Part shown: positions 38,581 through 50,092 of the stretch, piece after piece
How the letters are laid out: the number at the start of each line of letters is the position of its first letter
Position numbering within the stretch: the stretch's first letter is position 1
Assembly (NCBI GenBank): GCA_028694155.1
Contig: JAQUTY010000008.1
Span: forward strand, 14,609 to 78,608
Length of the DNA: 64,000 nucleotides
Direction of reading: 5' to 3'
Origin: Eubacteriales bacterium
GTDB lineage: Bacteria > Bacillota > Clostridia > Christensenellales > CAG-138
Notes under the pieces: generated by a model
Databases searched by the model: none
What the model saw: the letters and a program-made list of their open reading frames with translations, nothing else
Told to the model about the DNA's origin: nothing
Position numbers and translations under genes: made by a program

Positions 38581-39200
38581 TCATTGGGTTTTTAGTTGTT
38601 GTCTTGCCTTGCGGCAATAGTAGGCATCGATGTCGATTCCTATGTACCGGCGACGCTCCTGCGCAGCGGCAATACACGTTGCTCCCGACCCGCAGAAGGG
38701 GTCGAGGACTATGTCTCCCTCGCTTGTGGTTGCGGTGATAAGGCGGCGCATCAGCTCGATAGGCTTCTGCGTCGGATGTATCATCTGCGTGGACGGCAGC
38801 TTGGCGACACGCTGTACGTCAGTAGGCCGTGCTGCGGAGCAAATTGTGCCTTAGTGTTTCCCATGCCGTGACTGGCCTTGTCCCATACTATGCATGAGCG
38901 CACAGTGAGATCGGCCCACTCGATTGCTGCTTTCCAGTCGCCCAGCACATCCCATCTTGTGAAGCAGAGAAGTCCGCCATCCTCTTTGAGGATGCGGGCA
39001 GCCTCATGCAGCCACCATATATAGGGATGCTTGTCGCCAGCCACCTGCTGATTGTGCAGTGCTTGATTTTTAGACTTGTAGCTGATTCCATATGGCGGAT
39101 CCGTCAGTATAAGGTCTATGCTCTCCGCTGAGAGCATCGGGAGTAGCTTCATGCAATCCGCATGATAGATGTGGTTCGATGTTACTTCGGGCTTGATGTT
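38581..39200 (-). pseudogene. Beta-class N4/N6 DNA methyltransferase, split by frameshift/deletion
   Basis: TDPPY in one frame; HPTQKP and LDPFCGSG in another; junction near 38830; start uncertain. Confidence 0.8.
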
Positions 39201-39400
39201 TACCTTCTTTCCTTGTATTTGGGTTATATTATCGGCACACCGCCGTAACAAGCTTGCTGCCCCTTGTACGGGGCAGCTCTAGGAGGAGGAAGCGGCGACT
39301 GAGTCGCCGAGCGAAGCTGTGGGGGTAGGCTCCGCCATTTGGACGGGAACCCGTCCAAGGTTGAAAACTTTAATATAATCGCCGTTGCGCCTTGCCGAGA

Positions 39401-39931
39401 TTACTCAATCGACAGCTTGCTTAGGCTGCTTGGTATGAGGGGATAGTGTACACGCGCCTCCAGCTCTCCCAGCCGGATGGTTGCGGTCACTCGATGCTGC
39501 CTCGTATCTATCTTAATTACGTCTACCCCTTCGGGGATAGTGGACTCCAGCACTACAGCACCGTCTTGCTTGCTCCACGTGAGTGTCATAGGGTGCGAGG
39601 CTCCGTCAACCGTCATTTGCCGGATTACCTCTATCTGCTGTGCGGGTATCGGCTTAGGCATCTCGGTAGCCGTTTTTCCCAGCAGCCGAATTACGCTCCC
39701 AATATCCATTATCTTATGATATATGGCTGCTGTCAGCTCCTCGACTTGGATAAGTACGTAGGACGGTATCATCAGCCGCTCTCGCCTGTGCCACACGCCG
39801 CCTTGGCGATACAGAAGATGCTCGATCGGGACGCAGGTGTCCGTTACTCCATTGATTTTTGACACGTTTCGTGCAACGGTCTCCTCCTCACTGGGGATAA
39901 CATATAGGGCATACCAGCTATCTGTCGTCAT
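39401..39931 (-). CDS. NusG-paralog transcription antiterminator (LoaP/UpxY-like)
   Basis: WYALYV...EE, LMIPSYVLI, VIRLLG...PIP NGN domain; KOW-like C-terminus KIDTRQHRVT. Confidence 0.8.
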   Translation of the reverse strand: MTTDSWYALYVIPSEEETVARNVSKINGVTDTCVPIEHLLYRQGGVWHRRERLMIPSYVLIQVEELTAAIYHKIMDIGSVIRLLGKTATEMPKPIPAQQIEVIRQMTVDGASHPMTLTWSKQDGAVVLESTIPEGVDVIKIDTRQHRVTATIRLGELEARVHYPLIPSSLSKLSIE

Positions 39932-40487
39932 CTTTGTCAGCCTCCTCTGTAGCCGCTGCTGACACGATTTCCTCCAGCTTACCCAATAGGGTCTTATCGT
40001 CCTGTATGGCCTCACGGATGCGCTTAAGGATAAGTGCCTCGACATCCTTACACGCTTGTTTGCGGGCGGAGCGCATACGCTCCTTATATACCGCACTGCG
40101 CTGGAGCTGTACCACGAGCTTGCCGGCCTTTTCAAGCGGCATCTCGTCAAACTCTTCCTCTGCGGTGGCGATACGCTTGACAAGTCCATCTATCATGAGC
40201 GAGGTCGCCAGCTCGGAGGCAGCAATGTCTTGATTTTCACGGGCTATCGACAATAGTGCCGTGGTCTGTTCCCGTGCCTCTCGGAGCCGCTGAGCCGCCG
40301 AGTTCTGTCGAAGGGCGTACCTTCCGATGCTGCTCTTGCTGATAATCCAGCCGTGCTTTACCATTGCATCTGATATCTCTTGATAGCTCAGAAGGACATT
40401 GGCAAGGCTCTCATCCAAGAATGCTCTCGCCTCTTCCGGCAGCTCATCTATACGGCTCTTTATGCGGTTTTTTACCCGCGCCGCCAT
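39918..40487 (-). CDS. DUF3486 / Mu gp27-like protein (putative small terminase)
   Basis: SRIDELP...ISKSSIGRY motif. Confidence 0.8.
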   Translation of the reverse strand: MAARVKNRIKSRIDELPEEARAFLDESLANVLLSYQEISDAMVKHGWIISKSSIGRYALRQNSAAQRLREAREQTTALLSIARENQDIAASELATSLMIDGLVKRIATAEEEFDEMPLEKAGKLVVQLQRSAVYKERMRSARKQACKDVEALILKRIREAIQDDKTLLGKLEEIVSAAATEEADKDDDR

Positions 40488-43712: not shown

Positions 43713-45812
43713 TCAAACTTGTATTCTTTTGGATGCTGCTTTGGATTGCTCATAGTCGCGAATCATTTTCGCCATCACCATGTCAGCCGACTTTTTATCG
43801 TCCATTGTTTGTCTTCTCTTACGGACCTTGATTTCGGCATTCTCGATTGCAGCTCGGCGGTACTCTGTTGAGGTGATGCCTCCTTGGTACGTTTCGTCTA
43901 AGGCTTCGCCTAACGGATCTCTGTACCGTAGCAGCGCAACGCTCTTCCTAGTCCGTTGGATCTCTTCACGTACCGCCTTTTTTGCAGCTCGTTGTCTGCC
44001 AATGTGTGCGGCCACTCGTTCCTTATCCTCGCCTACTAGAGCGAATGGAGTGTCGAGTGTCGCCGTGCAGATGTGCCGATTGCCGGAGATTACCGTTATT
44101 CCATCCATATCGTCCTTGTTGTAGCGGACGGTAACCTCCTTGCCTATATAATCCTGTAATCTCTCGTCCCAGTACACGCGGTTGTGCAGCCGTATTCCCA
44201 TATATCCAACCTTGCGCGAAACGATTTCAGTCTGCAGCAGTGCCATCATGTCATACGAGGGCATATCCTGTCGTGCTTTGGGCAACGACTTGTATATTTC
44301 TATTGGTGATTGCTCGTTGCCATATCGTTCGTAATGATACGCTGGGATTATTTGCTCATGCCATATTTGTGCGAACTGCTCGATAGTCAGCAACTCACCG
44401 TTAGCCGCCATTCTCTCCAGCTTCGCACGAGATAGGTCCTGTGGACGCTCCGAGGGTTTTCCGCCACACCATCCGGGCAGCTCGCGCATCCATCTGTCCT
44501 CGACGATTCCAAATAGTCTCTCTATGGTCTTCGCCCAAGCCTTGTAGGGTTGTGCATGGATTACACTGATTTGTAGTGCTGCCAATGCGCCTTGACTGCC
44601 CAGCTGCTCATCTATATGCCCAATGACTGCTTTGGGATCGAGACTTCCTTCCATCTTTTTGCTTCGATAATCCTTGCCATTATCGATATACAGCGTTCGA
44701 ACCATCCCTTGAATAATGCTATTCTGTTTCGGCATTATTGCATCTCGCAGGGTTTTGATAATCTCGGTGCTATTGGGGTTCTCTGATATGCGAGTACCCA
44801 CAAAGCAGCCGGACGCTGCGTCTGAGAAGGCTATAATCCACGGACGCATGATTGTGCCATCTGATCCAATTACAAAAATGTCGCACAGGTGATTATCGCC
44901 AAACCAGCAGGCATTGATCTCGGTCGGTTTTTTGCGCTGAATTTTGTGCATGTAGTTGGCTTCCCAGTAACGTGATCCTCGTTGAGCATATGCTATTGCC
45001 CCTTTAGGGAGAGAGGCTACATATCTGTTGATTGTGCATTTGTTGATCGGCAGTACGATCCCTTTTTTATCCGAAGATGAGCAAATCTCATATTGGTCGG
45101 CTGTTTGCCCAAATGCTAACTCCCGACTAGCCAAAGACGACGGATTATGCGCACAGCGTTCACAAGCCTTGTTCCCCAAAGTTGATTGTAACTTTATGAG
45201 CTTAGAAAAAATAGCGGATTGTGGAAGCTTGCTATCCCTGTAAAGTTCATCTCTTATATAGTCTTGTGCCATGAGGCACAGGGTTTTGGACTGTCCGGCT
45301 CCCTGCTTCCGCAGCGATTGCATCAGTCCTGCAATTCCTTCATCCTTATATGCGGAGATCCAGCGATACAGCGTTCTTGTCGTGATCCCATTGTGGGAGG
45401 CGATAGTCTCGGCTGCCGATACTGTGCTGCCGTGTTTAGCATCCAGCATTTCACGCTTATAGTCAAGGACGGCAAAGTATCGCCTATTAAGCTCTTTTAT
45501 TCCCTCATCTCCGTATCTCGCATGATAGGCTGCCATGTCGCACTCGCTCATCTGCTCAGCGTTAATGATATGCCGCATCTGTGCCTCCAGTGGCAGGCTC
45601 GGAACATACACCATGTACGCACGTCCGCCCTGTATATCACTGCCGGCTACCAACATTGCTGTCATTTTGCTTGTTTGACATAGCTCTCGCACCCTGCGCT
45701 CCGATACATCCATAAGCACGGCAGCCGTTGCTGTGCTGACGTATAACGGCGTACCCTCGCTGTGCGGGATGATGCCGTCTAATTGCTCATGTTGTTGGAC
45801 TGCGTATACCAT
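43713..45812 (-). CDS. MuA-like DDE transposase
   Basis: WFGDNH (D), YIDNGKDY (D), AKTIERLF (E); N-terminal HTHs; Mu-transposase C-terminal VRY domain. Confidence 0.95.
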   Translation of the reverse strand: MVYAVQQHEQLDGIIPHSEGTPLYVSTATAAVLMDVSERRVRELCQTSKMTAMLVAGSDIQGGRAYMVYVPSLPLEAQMRHIINAEQMSECDMAAYHARYGDEGIKELNRRYFAVLDYKREMLDAKHGSTVSAAETIASHNGITTRTLYRWISAYKDEGIAGLMQSLRKQGAGQSKTLCLMAQDYIRDELYRDSKLPQSAIFSKLIKLQSTLGNKACERCAHNPSSLASRELAFGQTADQYEICSSSDKKGIVLPINKCTINRYVASLPKGAIAYAQRGSRYWEANYMHKIQRKKPTEINACWFGDNHLCDIFVIGSDGTIMRPWIIAFSDAASGCFVGTRISENPNSTEIIKTLRDAIMPKQNSIIQGMVRTLYIDNGKDYRSKKMEGSLDPKAVIGHIDEQLGSQGALAALQISVIHAQPYKAWAKTIERLFGIVEDRWMRELPGWCGGKPSERPQDLSRAKLERMAANGELLTIEQFAQIWHEQIIPAYHYERYGNEQSPIEIYKSLPKARQDMPSYDMMALLQTEIVSRKVGYMGIRLHNRVYWDERLQDYIGKEVTVRYNKDDMDGITVISGNRHICTATLDTPFALVGEDKERVAAHIGRQRAAKKAVREEIQRTRKSVALLRYRDPLGEALDETYQGGITSTEYRRAAIENAEIKVRKRRQTMDDKKSADMVMAKMIRDYEQSKAASKRIQV

Positions 45813-45824
45813 ACATTCTCCTTG

Positions 45825-45887
45825 TGACCTGCCTCATCAGTGCGGGGTGGTCAACCCCTCGCATACGGGCTTGCGCCCGTTTCGGCT
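45825..45887 (-). ncRNA. Hammerhead ribozyme (type II, pseudoknotted), copy 2
   Basis: GCC-GAAA-CGGGC(GCAA)GCCCG-UA^-stem I with loop UGACC-CUGAUGA-GGC-A-GGUCA; complete catalytic core. Confidence 0.92.
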
Positions 45888-46089
45888 ATGCTGTCTCCGT
45901 CATGCGTGTCGCCGCCCTCAGTAGTCGCAGCAGTCTTTCGTTGTCCCTCTCCAACTTGCTGTTCAGATCCGACTGTTTGCCCGCCTCGTCGATGATGCGG
46001 AGCAGGTAGCTGTACTCATCGTATCTGAGCTTGCCGTTGTCATACAGCTCATACAGCTTTGCCCGTGCCTCAAAATGTTTGTGGCTCAT
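45886..46089 (-). CDS. Small hypothetical protein (67 aa) between the ribozymes
   Basis: RBS AAGGAGG; ATGA overlap with upstream ORF; MSHKHFEARAK...coiled coil; stop overlaps ribozyme 5' end. Confidence 0.65.
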   Translation of the reverse strand: MSHKHFEARAKLYELYDNGKLRYDEYSYLLRIIDEAGKQSDLNSKLERDNERLLRLLRAATRMTETA

Positions 46090-46274
46090 GTCGCCCTCCT
46101 TGTCCGGGCGCAGACGATAAGTGCATCCTCGCCCTTGGTAATGCCATACATTCCCACCCATGAGGGCGACTGTATCAGCCGTGCTGCCTCCGCTGGTGTG
46201 CATTCTCTAAGCTCGTATACCGCCATTCCCTTTAGCCGTCCCATCCGGCGCAGTCCGTGTCCTACCTTTAGCAT
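46086..46274 (-). CDS. Small hypothetical protein (62 aa) between the ribozymes
   Basis: RBS AGGAGG upstream of ATG; translationally coupled to the next ORF. Confidence 0.6.
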   Translation of the reverse strand: MLKVGHGLRRMGRLKGMAVYELRECTPAEAARLIQSPSWVGMYGITKGEDALIVCARTRRAT

Positions 46275-46304: not shown

Positions 46305-46367
46305 TGACCTGCCTCATCAGTGCGGGGTGGTCAACCCCTCGCATACGGGCTTGCGCCCGTTTCGGCT
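46305..46367 (-). ncRNA. Hammerhead ribozyme (type II, pseudoknotted), copy 1
   Basis: 63-nt exact copy of 45825-45887. Confidence 0.92.
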
Positions 46368-46381
46368 TGTATGCCGCTTAT

Positions 46382-46621
46382 CTATGTGATCTGCTGCGCA
46401 GTCAGATCCCTAAATCCCAGCCCTTTTGAGTAGTCCCACTCGATAGTTCCATCCGGGTACATCCCAATGCCGTATGCCACGAGTGTCCAGCCCGATTGGG
46501 CGTTCTGCATTGTGGCGGATTGTTGTGTTGGTCGCTTGTCGATGCACATGTAAGTCCCGCCTCCGTGATTATTGTATCGCTCCCCATGCTTAGGGCAATA
46601 TGGTGTAATCTCGTTATTCAT
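46382..46621 (-). CDS. Hypothetical phage early protein (79 aa)
   Basis: RBS GAGGAGG, ATGA coupling to upstream gene; SGWTL...DGTIEWDYS. Confidence 0.65.
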   Translation of the reverse strand: MNNEITPYCPKHGERYNNHGGGTYMCIDKRPTQQSATMQNAQSGWTLVAYGIGMYPDGTIEWDYSKGLGFRDLTAQQIT

Positions 46622-47388
46622 CGCTCGTCCTCCTCGCTTCCGCTACAAGGGGTCATTATTTCAGTGACCCCTTGCATCTTGCGTTTTAACCGTGCGAGGA
46701 GCCCTTTTTTGGTTGGCGTCTCCAATCTGCCGTCTGCAAGCCGATCTATGGCGGCAATCAGCATATCGACTTTGGCGCACAGTGAGTTAAAGTTATCAGT
46801 TTCAGCCGCAGACTCTTGATTCGACGCGCATCCTTTTACTCCACTTTGCGCCATGCCGCCCTCGCCTGTTTTTATCCACTTTTCGTTCACATGAAAAATG
46901 GAACAAAAAGCGTGTATTAGTTGATCAGAAGGAACAACTTTGCCGGCTTCAATCCTCGACATATAGGATGGAGTAATGCACAATGCAGCGGCTACGTCTT
47001 GTTGTTTTAATCCCTTCTCTTTTGTGAATTCCTTAATACGTTCACCAATGGAAGCTGTATTGCTGGTGTCCTCCATGCGACCGATGTCTGAGAGGTGTTC
47101 CTGCCAGATGGCTTTTATCTGCTCCTCGGTTTTGCCGATATATACTCCATTTTTCTCCTCCCACAAAATATCCCCGGTTTGGTTTTGTCTGATCGGAGGC
47201 GGCATGATCCATGACTCATTCGTTGCGACATCGGTCATTAGCATTGATCCCAATGGATCAATGTCACGACAACAAAAATTCTTAAATTCTGTGGCTTTAT
47301 ATACTTTTCCGACTTCGATTTTTGCGGCAAAGCGAAAAATGTAGTTGATTTGCTTCTCGTATGTTTTAAGAACCGGTATTATTATCAT
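46618..47388 (-). CDS. XRE-HTH-containing early protein
   Basis: Internal HTH SIGERIK...PSYMSRIEAG...WIKTGEG. Confidence 0.75.
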   Translation of the reverse strand: MIIIPVLKTYEKQINYIFRFAAKIEVGKVYKATEFKNFCCRDIDPLGSMLMTDVATNESWIMPPPIRQNQTGDILWEEKNGVYIGKTEEQIKAIWQEHLSDIGRMEDTSNTASIGERIKEFTKEKGLKQQDVAAALCITPSYMSRIEAGKVVPSDQLIHAFCSIFHVNEKWIKTGEGGMAQSGVKGCASNQESAAETDNFNSLCAKVDMLIAAIDRLADGRLETPTKKGLLARLKRKMQGVTEIMTPCSGSEEDER

Positions 47389-47609
47389 GCTACCTCCTTG
47401 CCAATGAACATCGCTCGAAGCTGTATAACCCCAACACCTAAAATTGGAGCCATTTTATCGACAATATACGGTTTGGGGCGGTTTGACTTACCGCTGATGA
47501 TTGCTGTTAATGTCATTGGACTGATCCCCACCTCTTCAGCAAACTCTCGTTTCGTTCTGCCGGTTAGGTAGATTAAATCCTCTAACCATTTACGCTTTTC
47601 AGATTTCAT
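47385..47609 (-). CDS. Cro/Ner-like small HTH regulator
   Basis: 74 aa HTH (EFAEEVGISPMTLTAIISG); first gene of early operon. Confidence 0.8.
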   Translation of the reverse strand: MKSEKRKWLEDLIYLTGRTKREFAEEVGISPMTLTAIISGKSNRPKPYIVDKMAPILGVGVIQLRAMFIGKEVA

Positions 47610-47691: not shown

Positions 47692-47732
47692 ATTATAGTA
47701 TTGAAATAAAACTTTGTCAAGCGGAAGTTTTA
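47692..47732 (-). promoter_or_regulatory. Early promoter with overlapping operator
   Basis: Perfect TTGACA(47720-47715)-17-TATAAT(47697-47692); inverted repeat TAAAACTT-N10-AAGTTTTA (47707-47732) spans the -35. Confidence 0.8.
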
Positions 47733-47777: not shown

Positions 47778-48293
47778 ATGGCACTGGGAGAAAGAATAAA
47801 ACAAATACGAAAAGAACAAGGGCATACGCAGCTAGCCTTTGCACAACTTCTAGGAGTCTCAAAACCTCATATTTCGAATGTAGAGAGTGGTACAGCAAAT
47901 CCATCTGAGAGCTTAATTAAATCGATCTGCTTTACGTTTGGCATCTCGGAGCTATGGCTGAAAACAGGCGAGGGTCAACGTGACTATTCAATCGTCGACC
48001 AGTATTCTAACTTGTCTCGTCAACAAGCTGACGACATGAATAAGGGGAGTGCAGCGCAATACAAATGGGGCTGGATTGCATCCAGTTTAATGAGCCGATT
48101 CCCATCATTGACAGAACAGAACGCATTAGCGGAATGCCTGGTCAGCAAAACCGCCGCCGATTTTTCTCCTATTTTGGACCATCTAATATTTTTGTGGTAT
48201 AGCGGAGATGACAAGGTTAAAGCGCGAATTGAGACCCGGCTGAACGATCTCCTCGTTGATGCTATTGCTTATTATGAATCTAGGAAACACTAA
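47778..48293 (+). CDS. Prophage repressor (XRE HTH)
   Basis: LGERIKQIRK...HISNVESG...WLKTGEG; divergent from early operon. Confidence 0.85.
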   Translation: MALGERIKQIRKEQGHTQLAFAQLLGVSKPHISNVESGTANPSESLIKSICFTFGISELWLKTGEGQRDYSIVDQYSNLSRQQADDMNKGSAAQYKWGWIASSLMSRFPSLTEQNALAECLVSKTAADFSPILDHLIFLWYSGDDKVKARIETRLNDLLVDAIAYYESRKH

Positions 48294-49233: not shown

Positions 49234-49631
49234 GCTAAAATAGGATGGATGTTTTCCCGACTTGTATCTATGGCGATTCCCCGCCTATTCTGCATATTTC
49301 CTTAATTCTGCATATTTATGCTGCATATTTTTGTCTCTCAATTTTCGATGCAATATATAATAGGAAGAAATTGCCTAAAAAGACTTCCGACCCCCAAAAG
49401 CGCAATTTTGCCCCATATTAGGCGGTTTCTTCTCTTTTTTACCCCTTCCGACCCCCTTCCGACCCCCCTTGCGATTTTGGAACAAAAAAAGGGCTATGTT
49501 TTACCCTGTGATAACACGGATAACGCCCATATTTAGGGCAAATAACAAGTTTTGGCATTTCCTTTTTGCAAATCGTTATAGATTAGAAAAAACTGTGTTT
49601 TTGCCCGTATTTGCCCCTTTTTTCTATATGC

Positions 49632-49833
49632 TTGTGACACGGATCGTGCATCAACAATTATGTCGGTTTTGCCCCGCTTGTCGCTCAAAGTTTCACAGTC
49701 GATGAACCTCTCAAACCCCCTATTTTAGCCGTTTTATATCCCATCAAAGCCCCGATAAATATACCATAAACCGACGAATCCCACGTCAAATCCCGACCCG
49801 TTCTAATTGGTGACATGAGTGTGCGTGTTTACA
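49632..49833 (-). repeat. Right-end transposase-binding sites
   Basis: Minus strand TGTAAACACGCACACTCATGTCA at the terminus and TGCACGATCCGTGTCAC near 49634-49650 resemble the left-end repeats. Confidence 0.7.
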
Positions 49834-50092
49834 GATAGAGAGCATAGTTTTGGAAAACCAACCCGATTCCTCGCTTTTCGGCAGGGGTGTCCGTAACATC
49901 GTCGTCACCAAAATAAATCCTGCCGGATGTGGGCTGCTCTAATCCGGAGATTAAATACAGCAGGGTCGACTTGCCGCAGCCACTTGGCCCCAAAAGCCCT
50001 GTGAGCTTTCCGTCGGCAATAGTCAAATTTACATCGTCTACCGCCAAGGTTCCTGAAAAGTCTTTTACCAGATGTTCCAGTCGCAGTTGCAT
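49834..50092 (-). pseudogene. 5' part of ABC ATPase interrupted by the prophage
   Basis: Walker A GPSGCGKST, ...LVFQNYALY then runs into phage DNA and stops. Confidence 0.95.

What the first reader, a model, noticed from the sequence alone, without database searches (positions are those of the whole stretch)
45810..45890. Ribozyme wedged between a stop codon and the transposase RBS: possible control of transposition
Seen: the upstream ORF's TAG (45888-45886) overlaps the ribozyme's first nucleotides. The pseudoknot strand GGUCA ends at 45825, one base before the AAGGAG RBS (45823-45818) of the transposase (ATG 45812). Established: in Bacillus the 5'-OH product of glmS ribozyme cleavage is degraded by RNase J1. 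Inference: terminating ribosomes could block stem II folding, linking upstream translation to cleavage. Cleavage could either destabilise the transposase mRNA or insulate it with a defined 5' hairpin, thereby setting transposase dose.
Basis: partly seen in the sequence, partly recalled or inferred. Interest (0 to 1): 0.72.

Follow-up and report, generated by a model that had tools for sequence, protein, structure and literature searches.

The report
Self-cutting RNA before phage transposase gene
A small RNA motif predicted to cut itself sits between two genes of a jumping bacterial virus; it belongs to a known class, and the same tight fit recurs in front of many unrelated phage genes, so it most likely splits one long message into pieces rather than acting as a special switch for the transposase.

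Summary
Observation confirmed. 45887-45825 (- strand) is a type II pseudoknot hammerhead (Rfam RF02276). The real upstream gene's TAG supplies the first stem II base, and the pseudoknot ends one base before the RBS of a MuA transposase in a Mu-like prophage. An identical copy lies 480 nt upstream. The wedge is not special to the transposase: in viral contigs, 47 of 65 such hammerheads with a called upstream ORF have the stop ending 0-3 nt from stem II (null 2%). Twister-sister ribozymes in neighbouring phage lineages are packed the same way. The hammerhead is kept upstream of MuA in 24 of 25 redundant loci at >=40% identity (three deep branches), including loci where no sense-strand gene ends at it. 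That argues against gating by terminating ribosomes. Best reading: a constitutive processing site that splits the early transcript and leaves protected ends, affecting the whole MuA-to-Mor block. Cleavage and its effect on transposase dose are untested. The link between ribozymes and Mu-like phages is published. I found the stop|ribozyme|RBS packing rule, the apparent homogenisation of the two copies and a transposase swap under the same ribozyme in none of the papers I could read.

The parts
47692..47720 (-). Promoter-like site, perfect sigma-70 consensus (12 of 12); predicted start of the early operon
   Evidence: activity not shown
47778..48293 (+). Divergent HTH repressor-like gene
47385..47609 (-). 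74-aa HTH regulator (Cro/Ner-like position, my label)
46618..47388 (-). HTH regulator, up to 256 aa (start uncertain)
46382..46621 (-). 79-aa ORF of unknown function; its stop ends 16 nt before stem II of hammerhead 1
   Evidence: homologues in other Mu-like loci
46305..46367 (-). Hammerhead 1 (type II, pseudoknot), identical to hammerhead 2; predicted cut after 46344
46086..46274 (-). 62-aa ORF with its own RBS, no family
   Evidence: 5 of 7 listed variant sites synonymous
45886..46089 (-). 67-aa ORF, no family; its TAG overlaps the first stem II base of hammerhead 2
   Evidence: 10 of 11 listed variant sites synonymous
45825..45887 (-). Hammerhead 2 (the finding); predicted cut after 45864, 51 nt before the MuA ATG
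45818..45823 (-). Shine-Dalgarno AAGGAG of MuA
43713..45812 (-). MuA-like DDE transposase, 699 aa
   Evidence: phrog_310 E 3.9e-76; PF09299
42691..43668 (-). MuB-like AAA ATPase
   Evidence: phrog_296; PF13401
41880..42443 (-). Gam-like end-protection protein (start uncertain)
   Evidence: PF07352
41471..41932 (-). GemA-like protein
   Evidence: PF06252
41139..41564 (-). Mor-like activator (start uncertain)
   Evidence: PF08765
41062..41084 (-). Terminator-like hairpin; predicted end of the early transcript
   Evidence: 13 such sites found against 10.4 expected by chance, so weak on its own

Best explanation
The element is a constitutive, probably co-transcriptional, mRNA processing site of a Mu-like prophage. 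One early transcript (about 47685 to 41055, inferred) is cut twice, into a ~1.3-kb regulator piece, a 480-nt piece with two small genes, and a ~4.8-kb MuA-MuB-Gam-GemA-Mor piece. In the type II arrangement each upstream piece ends in the stem III hairpin with a cyclic phosphate, and each downstream piece begins with a 5'-OH base already paired in stem I, locked by the pseudoknot, with the RBS directly behind. The pieces thus get defined, probably protected ends and separate lifetimes. Shown: structure, covariation, conservation, packing. Inferred: cleavage in vivo, transcript ends, protection from RNase J, and any effect on protein level. Transposase dose would be affected only as part of the whole downstream block.
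For: Structure and covariation. Hammerhead upstream of MuA in 24 of 25 loci at >=40% identity, adjacent in 21; the hammerhead-bearing rows form one clade with 100% SH-aLRT support and three deep branches. Lineages at 33-38% have no such hammerhead in 0 of 85 eligible loci, but 26 of 36 hand-picked loci carry twister-sister or twister ribozymes in the same operon, before or after MuA. So cutting, not the RNA family or the exact gene, is what recurs. General packing: stop within 0..-3 nt in 47 of 65 cores against a 2% null; RBS within 5 nt of the pseudoknot in 30 of 56; stop within -8..+4 nt for 29 of 36 distinct twister-sister/twister hits (my count). Tandem prophage hammerheads cut long transcripts in vitro and in E. 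coli (PMC3088659), and three type II hammerheads near phage-like genes cut in vivo in Desulfovibrio (PMC8782182). Hammerhead insulators upstream of an RBS are used for expression in B. subtilis and C. glutamicum, both RNase J hosts, and ribosomes initiating at a strong SD block RNase J1 (PMC5737220 abstract).
Against: No RNA ends were seen; only contigs were available. The cleavage triplet is GUA, while 73 of 75 viral cores have GUC; GUA is inside the published consensus but its rate here is unknown. RNase J1 can start on a 5'-OH end. The insulator passages I saw do not compare active and inactive ribozymes. The loci are redundant (near-identical groups), and the tree is the quick one, midpoint-rooted. 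10 of the 36 scanned loci had no ribozyme over the gathering score, and one more scan found only a sub-threshold twister in L240, so some of these phages may do without. The packing is tighter than that of ordinary gene pairs in the same loci (44 of 105 within 5 nt), which leaves room for coupling to translation.
Confidence: 0.55

Rival explanations
1. glmS-like limiter: the cut exposes a 5'-OH end that RNase J degrades, which keeps MuA/MuB low.
For: Host encodes RNase J; glmS precedent; the ribozyme is adjacent to MuA in 21 of 25 loci; low transposase dose is plausible for a transposable phage (my inference).
Against: The first base of the 3' product is paired (75 of 75 cores, but my descriptor largely required this) and the pseudoknot stays on it; the RBS lies right behind; the same element precedes many non-transposase genes and, in other lineages, lies after MuA.
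Confidence: 0.16
2. Translation-gated switch: ribosomes terminating on the upstream stop, or 30S subunits on the RBS, block folding, so cleavage reports translation.
For: Stops end within 3 nt of stem II in 47 of 65 cores and run into the ribozyme in only 2 of 68. A ribosome at that stop would cover stem II and the GAAA, and a 30S subunit would overlap the pseudoknot strand 13-17 nt before the ATG (footprints recalled). Tight packing also occurs in an Acidobacteria locus (L122).
Against: The offset varies among MuA orthologues (0, -1, -8) and between the two identical copies (0, -16); ribozymes stay intact where an opposite-strand gene lies upstream; the conserved A explains why stops cluster at -1 and 0; Bacillota are classed as runaway-transcription organisms; no consistent change in RBS opening energy on cleavage (lower in 7, higher in 4 of 11 sites; pseudoknot not modelled).
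Confidence: 0.12
3. The main role is at the DNA level, or the element is neutral: the repeats act as recombination handles that let small-gene cassettes come and go and keep the copies alike.
For: 63-nt identity that ends at the ribozyme borders. In run X6 both copies collapse into one 63-nt contig at about twice the cassette depth (109 vs 54) with 2 letters different from the window, so both copies share the changes, while the cassette differs at 21 of 476. Upstream gene content varies between loci.
Against: Compensatory changes and an invariant catalytic core show selection on the RNA fold. Most multi-copy contigs have diverged copies: best pair identity 58-86% in 8 of 10. 21 of the 24 hammerhead-bearing loci show one copy in the DNA held.
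Confidence: 0.1
4. The pair releases the 480-nt piece, which is ligated into a stable RNA circle coding for the two small proteins.
For: Two same-strand hammerheads give compatible ends; both ORFs lie wholly inside the piece.
Against: Perreault et al. looked for circles from tandem prophage hammerheads and found none. RtcB was not found in the host genome, 90% complete. Most orthologues show one copy. The circle has stops in all three frames.
Confidence: 0.07

Closest known systems
Type II pseudoknot hammerhead ribozymes of prophages (Rfam RF02276; Perreault et al. 2011, PMC3088659)
   Same: Permutation, core, loop I-tail pseudoknot, and several copies flanking short gene blocks in a prophage, proposed there to cut long transcripts into gene-sized mRNAs.
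   Different: Here the copies are fully identical, the triplet is GUA, and the site is tied to the MuA start in one clade. The passages I saw give no stop or RBS spacing.
Self-cleaving ribozymes near Mu-like phage genes (as summarised in PMC10085705; primary papers not seen)
   Same: Mu-like early operon; different ribozyme classes in similar places; reason stated as unknown.
   Different: This locus adds a clade-level map: hammerhead in one MuA clade, twister-sister or twister in its neighbours, with the same packing.
glmS riboswitch-ribozyme (PMC3997798, PMC6765202)
   Same: Self-cleavage upstream of a gene leaves a 5'-OH end in an RNase J host.
   Different: Different fold; glmS needs GlcN6P; this element lies inside an operon and its product starts base-paired.
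Synthetic hammerhead insulators (RiboJ, PlmJ; PMC10805106, PMC8942793)
   Same: Hammerhead directly upstream of an RBS gives a defined 5' end independent of upstream context.
   Different: Natural, intercistronic, type II with pseudoknot; no added hairpin.
RNase III sites in the phage T7 early transcript (recalled, no call)
   Same: An early polycistronic RNA is cut into pieces with structured ends.
   Different: T7 uses a host protein; here the RNA would cut itself.

Membership tests
Hammerhead type II (RF02276) | Score above the Rfam gathering threshold over the full model | tested here: met
   41.5 and 40.6 bits against 37, model positions 1-66
Hammerhead type II (RF02276) | Core CUGANGA, GAAA and NUH | tested here: met
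   CUGAUGA, GAAA, GUA; H17 = A, C or U in the published consensus
Hammerhead type II (RF02276) | Stems I and III closed, stem II open | tested here: met
Hammerhead type II (RF02276) | Loop I-3' tail pseudoknot | tested here: met
   5 complementary bases; 3 of 5 pairs with double changes; native 4.6 vs shuffled 3.2 pairs in 75 cores
Hammerhead type II (RF02276) | Self-cleavage at the predicted site | not testable with these tools
   Only contigs, no raw RNA reads
Mu-like transposable prophage | MuA, MuB, Gam, GemA, Mor in one early operon, divergent repressor | tested here: met
Mu-like transposable prophage | Head, tail and lysis genes | tested here: met
   terminase, portal, major head, tape measure, endolysin
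Mu-like transposable prophage | Transposon ends with target duplication | not tested
   ends not mapped
glmS-type regulatory ribozyme | glmS fold with metabolite cofactor, upstream of glmS | tested here: not met
   No such Rfam family in the window; the downstream gene is MuA
glmS-type regulatory ribozyme | RNase J-dependent decay of the 3' product (works-like question) | not testable with these tools
   RNase J gene present; decay not measurable
Retrozyme or viroid-like circular RNA | Monomer released by tandem ribozymes and circularised; rod-like or multi-copy element | tested here: inconclusive
   Tandem pair present; only two copies found in the genome; coding cassette; RtcB not found; circles not testable

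The most novel reading that the evidence does not exclude
Phage self-cleaving ribozymes of several classes are translation-sensitive punctuation. They fill the whole gap between a stop codon and the next RBS because ribosome traffic on either side sets how often they cut, and so sets the dose of the MuA-MuB block. In this phage the tandem copies also act as DNA repeats that recombination keeps identical, and the ribozyme-RBS unit stays in place while the transposase gene behind it is exchanged.
Probability: 0.15. Interest if true: 0.78.

Novelty: new member of a known kind. Interest (0 to 1): 0.45.

Why it matters
Why bacterial self-cleaving ribozymes cluster in Mu-like phages is stated to be unknown (PMC10085705, PMC6765202). 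This locus offers a compact test set: a 63-nt ribozyme, 51 nt from cut to ATG, natural variants with the stop at 0, -1, -8 or absent, two different transposases behind the same ribozyme and RBS, and neighbouring lineages that use another ribozyme class. One inactivating core change in a reporter would separate stabilisation, decay and translation gating. The packing rule (stop, ribozyme, RBS with almost no spacer) applies to many phages and is a lead in itself.

Tried and rejected
Single-protein locus search in viral contigs: 0 of 3 candidates confirmed. Exact window pattern in viral contigs: 0 matches. MuA search over 400 genomes of the class: 0 of 400 at E <= 1e-30. Other ribozymes: none in window 10000-52000 at E <= 1 beyond the two hammerheads and a weak MicX hit; twister-sister not found in the genome, but that search rang in no control either. 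RNA runs: X10 gave one 247-nt contig (45975-46221) inside the cassette and X12 one 217-nt contig (46729-46945); too little to show transcription, ends or levels. No joint skipping 480 nt was listed, but contigs break at the repeat, so deletion is neither shown nor excluded; depth figures cannot serve as copy numbers. Rolling-circle ORF: rejected, stops in all frames. RBS unmasking by cleavage: no consistent sign. Function of the two cassette proteins: no PHROG or Pfam family; Atlas hits were unnamed or under the bar. Assembly artefact: rejected, because independent runs X2 and X6 hold the cassette between two repeat junctions. General homogenisation of copies: not supported. Earlier scan notes: nothing returned. 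The primary 2015 ribozyme-discovery paper was not held.

Full report
Verdict. The element is a type II pseudoknot hammerhead in the early operon of a Mu-like prophage. Its tight fit between a stop codon and an RBS is a general trait of phage ribozymes, not a transposase-specific device. The most likely role is constitutive cutting of the early transcript; this is inferred, not shown.

Observation. The - strand shows the TAG at 45888-45886, whose G starts stem II, the pseudoknot strand at 45829-45825, AAGGAG at 45823-45818 and ATG at 45812. Rfam finds Hammerhead_II at 45887-45823 (41.5 bits) and at 46367-46303 (40.6 bits; gathering score 37). The two copies are identical over 63 nt and 480 nt apart, and are the only two found in the genome. 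Predicted cuts fall after 46344 and 45864. On 12 hand-picked homologues the structure, pseudoknot included, has 96.3% paired cells and 14 of 20 pairs with double changes; no shuffle of 500 reached this (related sequences inflate such tests, but the slid controls drop to 27-46% paired).

Setting. Downstream lie MuA, MuB, Gam, GemA and Mor homologues, then terminase, portal, head, tail and lysis genes. A perfect sigma-70 consensus at 47720-47692 and a terminator-like hairpin at 41084-41062 suggest one transcript of about 6.6 kb, cut into about 1.3 kb, 480 nt and 4.8 kb. The second cut therefore heads the whole MuA-to-Mor block. The two ORFs between the ribozymes have no family. They appear to be real genes: of the variant sites listed (12 more were not shown), 10 of 11 in the 67-aa ORF and 5 of 7 in the 62-aa ORF are synonymous.

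Conservation. An alignment of 58 of the 120 listed MuA homologues fetched 240 loci, which I scanned with my own descriptor, together with L003 and L007. Of 31 loci at >=40% identity, 25 had at least 300 nt upstream; 24 of these carry a type II hammerhead upstream of MuA and 21 directly before it. The window is one of the 25 and many are near-duplicates. The hammerhead-bearing rows form one clade (100% SH-aLRT) with three deep branches, and the one exception, L187, falls outside it (quick tree, midpoint root, L098 and L204 left out). Of 95 loci at 33-38%, 85 were eligible and none had such a hammerhead. I scanned 36 hand-picked loci from the 33-40% range against Rfam: 26 carry twister-sister (one also twister) ribozymes, upstream of MuA in 9 loci, adjacent to it in L097, and otherwise after MuA or further down. 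A laxer scan of the 10 negatives found one sub-threshold twister. Six loci under 30% identity have hammerheads 3-5 kb downstream of the MuA start. Named records in these sets are mostly Clostridia, several Christensenellales. Four of 150 other genomes of the host family had a hammerhead match, one of them before a MuA.

Is the wedge special? I analysed the 80 with full flanks; 68 held a validated hammerhead, 75 distinct cores in all. An upstream ORF was called for 65: the stop ends 0 to 3 nt from stem II in 47, against 2% at shifted positions. An RBS-like motif was found for 56, within 5 nt of the pseudoknot in 30 (crude ORF calling, one hammerhead subtype only). Twister-sister and twister hits show the stop within -8..+4 nt in 29 of 36 distinct cases (my count). 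Ordinary gene pairs in the same loci are also often tight (44 of 105 within 5 nt), though less uniformly. The A before stem II is present in 69 of 75 cores, which explains why stops cluster at -1 and 0. Among MuA orthologues the stop ends at 0, -1 or -8. In L008, L175 and L179 no substantial sense ORF ends near the ribozyme, and L008 has the start of an opposite-strand gene there (my reading of the sequence).

Natural variants. In DNA run X6 a contig follows the ribozyme tail, RBS and ATG and then leaves the window sequence at 45809. Read by hand, its loose end gives the first 11 residues of P0002, a MuA only 48% identical and the window's nearest neighbour in the tree. So two transposases stand behind the same ribozyme and RBS. 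In X6 both ribozyme copies form one 63-nt contig at depth 109 against 54 for the cassette, with 2 letters different from the window, and both flanking contigs stop aligning at the equivalent base (45854, 46334). I infer that both copies share the changes, that is, they were homogenised after the lineages split. This rests on contig tables of one run. It is not general: best pair identity was 58-86% in 8 of 10 multi-copy contigs, 98% in one and 100% only here.

Mechanism. After the cut, the upstream piece ends in the stem III hairpin with a cyclic phosphate, and the downstream piece starts with a paired 5'-OH base, keeps the pseudoknot and has its RBS just behind. The host has RNase J, which can start on a 5'-OH end as in glmS. 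On the other side, initiating ribosomes at a strong SD block RNase J1, and hammerhead insulators are in use in B. subtilis and C. glutamicum. I put 0.55 on processing with protected ends, 0.16 on decay, 0.12 on translation gating, 0.10 on a mainly DNA-level or neutral role and 0.07 on RNA circles. Gating is weakened by the variable offsets, by the loci without an upstream stop and by runaway transcription in Bacillota (a phylum-level assignment). It is not excluded, since ORFs ran into the ribozyme in only 2 of 68 cases.

Prior knowledge. Perreault et al. 2011 (passages) describe type II hammerheads, the pseudoknot and tandem copies flanking prophage genes; they showed cutting of long transcripts and found no circles. 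PMC10085705 (one passage) states that the strongest gene associations of bacterial hammerheads and twisters are with Mu-like phages, for unknown reasons. PMC6765202 (passages and section 13) calls the bacterial roles largely elusive. Also seen: PMC8782182, PMC13323073, PMC10805106, PMC8942793 and PMC3997798 (passages), PMC5737220 (abstract). Ten searches listed no paper on stop or RBS spacing of phage ribozymes, or on homogenised copies. I could not see the primary 2014-2015 discovery papers and read no supplements; the Perreault datasets and those papers may already hold these contexts. Ribosome footprints and the T7 comparison are recalled.

Score. New member of a known kind; interest 0.45. 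The class and the Mu association are known. The value lies in the packing rule, the class swap and the natural variants, which make an open question testable.

Noticed in passing
window 46367-46305 and 45887-45825; run X6: Both ribozyme copies appear to share the same two substitutions in a variant population whose cassette differs by about 4%, which points to homogenisation of the repeats.
   Followed up: partly
window 45809; runs X6 and X2: A second MuA (start matches P0002, 48% identical) follows the same ribozyme, RBS and ATG; the junction lies just after the start codon. X2 shows a diverged contig at the same point.
   Followed up: partly
L015, L017, L023, L097, L209, L206 and others: Neighbouring Mu-like lineages carry twister-sister (or twister) ribozymes, often two per early operon, with the same stop-ribozyme-RBS packing; some have long insertions in their stems.
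   Followed up: partly
L008 about 1500-1930: An opposite-strand gene lies directly upstream of an intact hammerhead and MuA; no sense ORF ends at the ribozyme.
   Followed up: partly
L037/L119, L270, L276-L279: Clusters of three or four diverged type II hammerheads among small phage ORFs.
   Followed up: no
L004 and L005: Type II hammerheads between small ORFs in non-transposase contexts in two genomes of the host family.
   Followed up: no
window 39401-40189: ORF matching a transcription antiterminator family (phrog_6386) between the small terminase and a DNA methyltransferase gene.
   Followed up: no
window 38581-39251: The DNA methyltransferase appears in at least two ORFs (156 aa and 67 aa); possibly split.
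   Followed up: no
window 49829-50092: Short ABC-transporter ATPase-like ORF (87 aa, my reading) beside the left prophage genes; may be a host gene cut by the insertion.
   Followed up: no
window 49286-49330 and 43694-43716/49632-49654: Three short direct repeats near the prophage end, and a 23-nt repeat shared between the MuA-MuB gap and the end region; candidate protein-binding sites.
   Followed up: no
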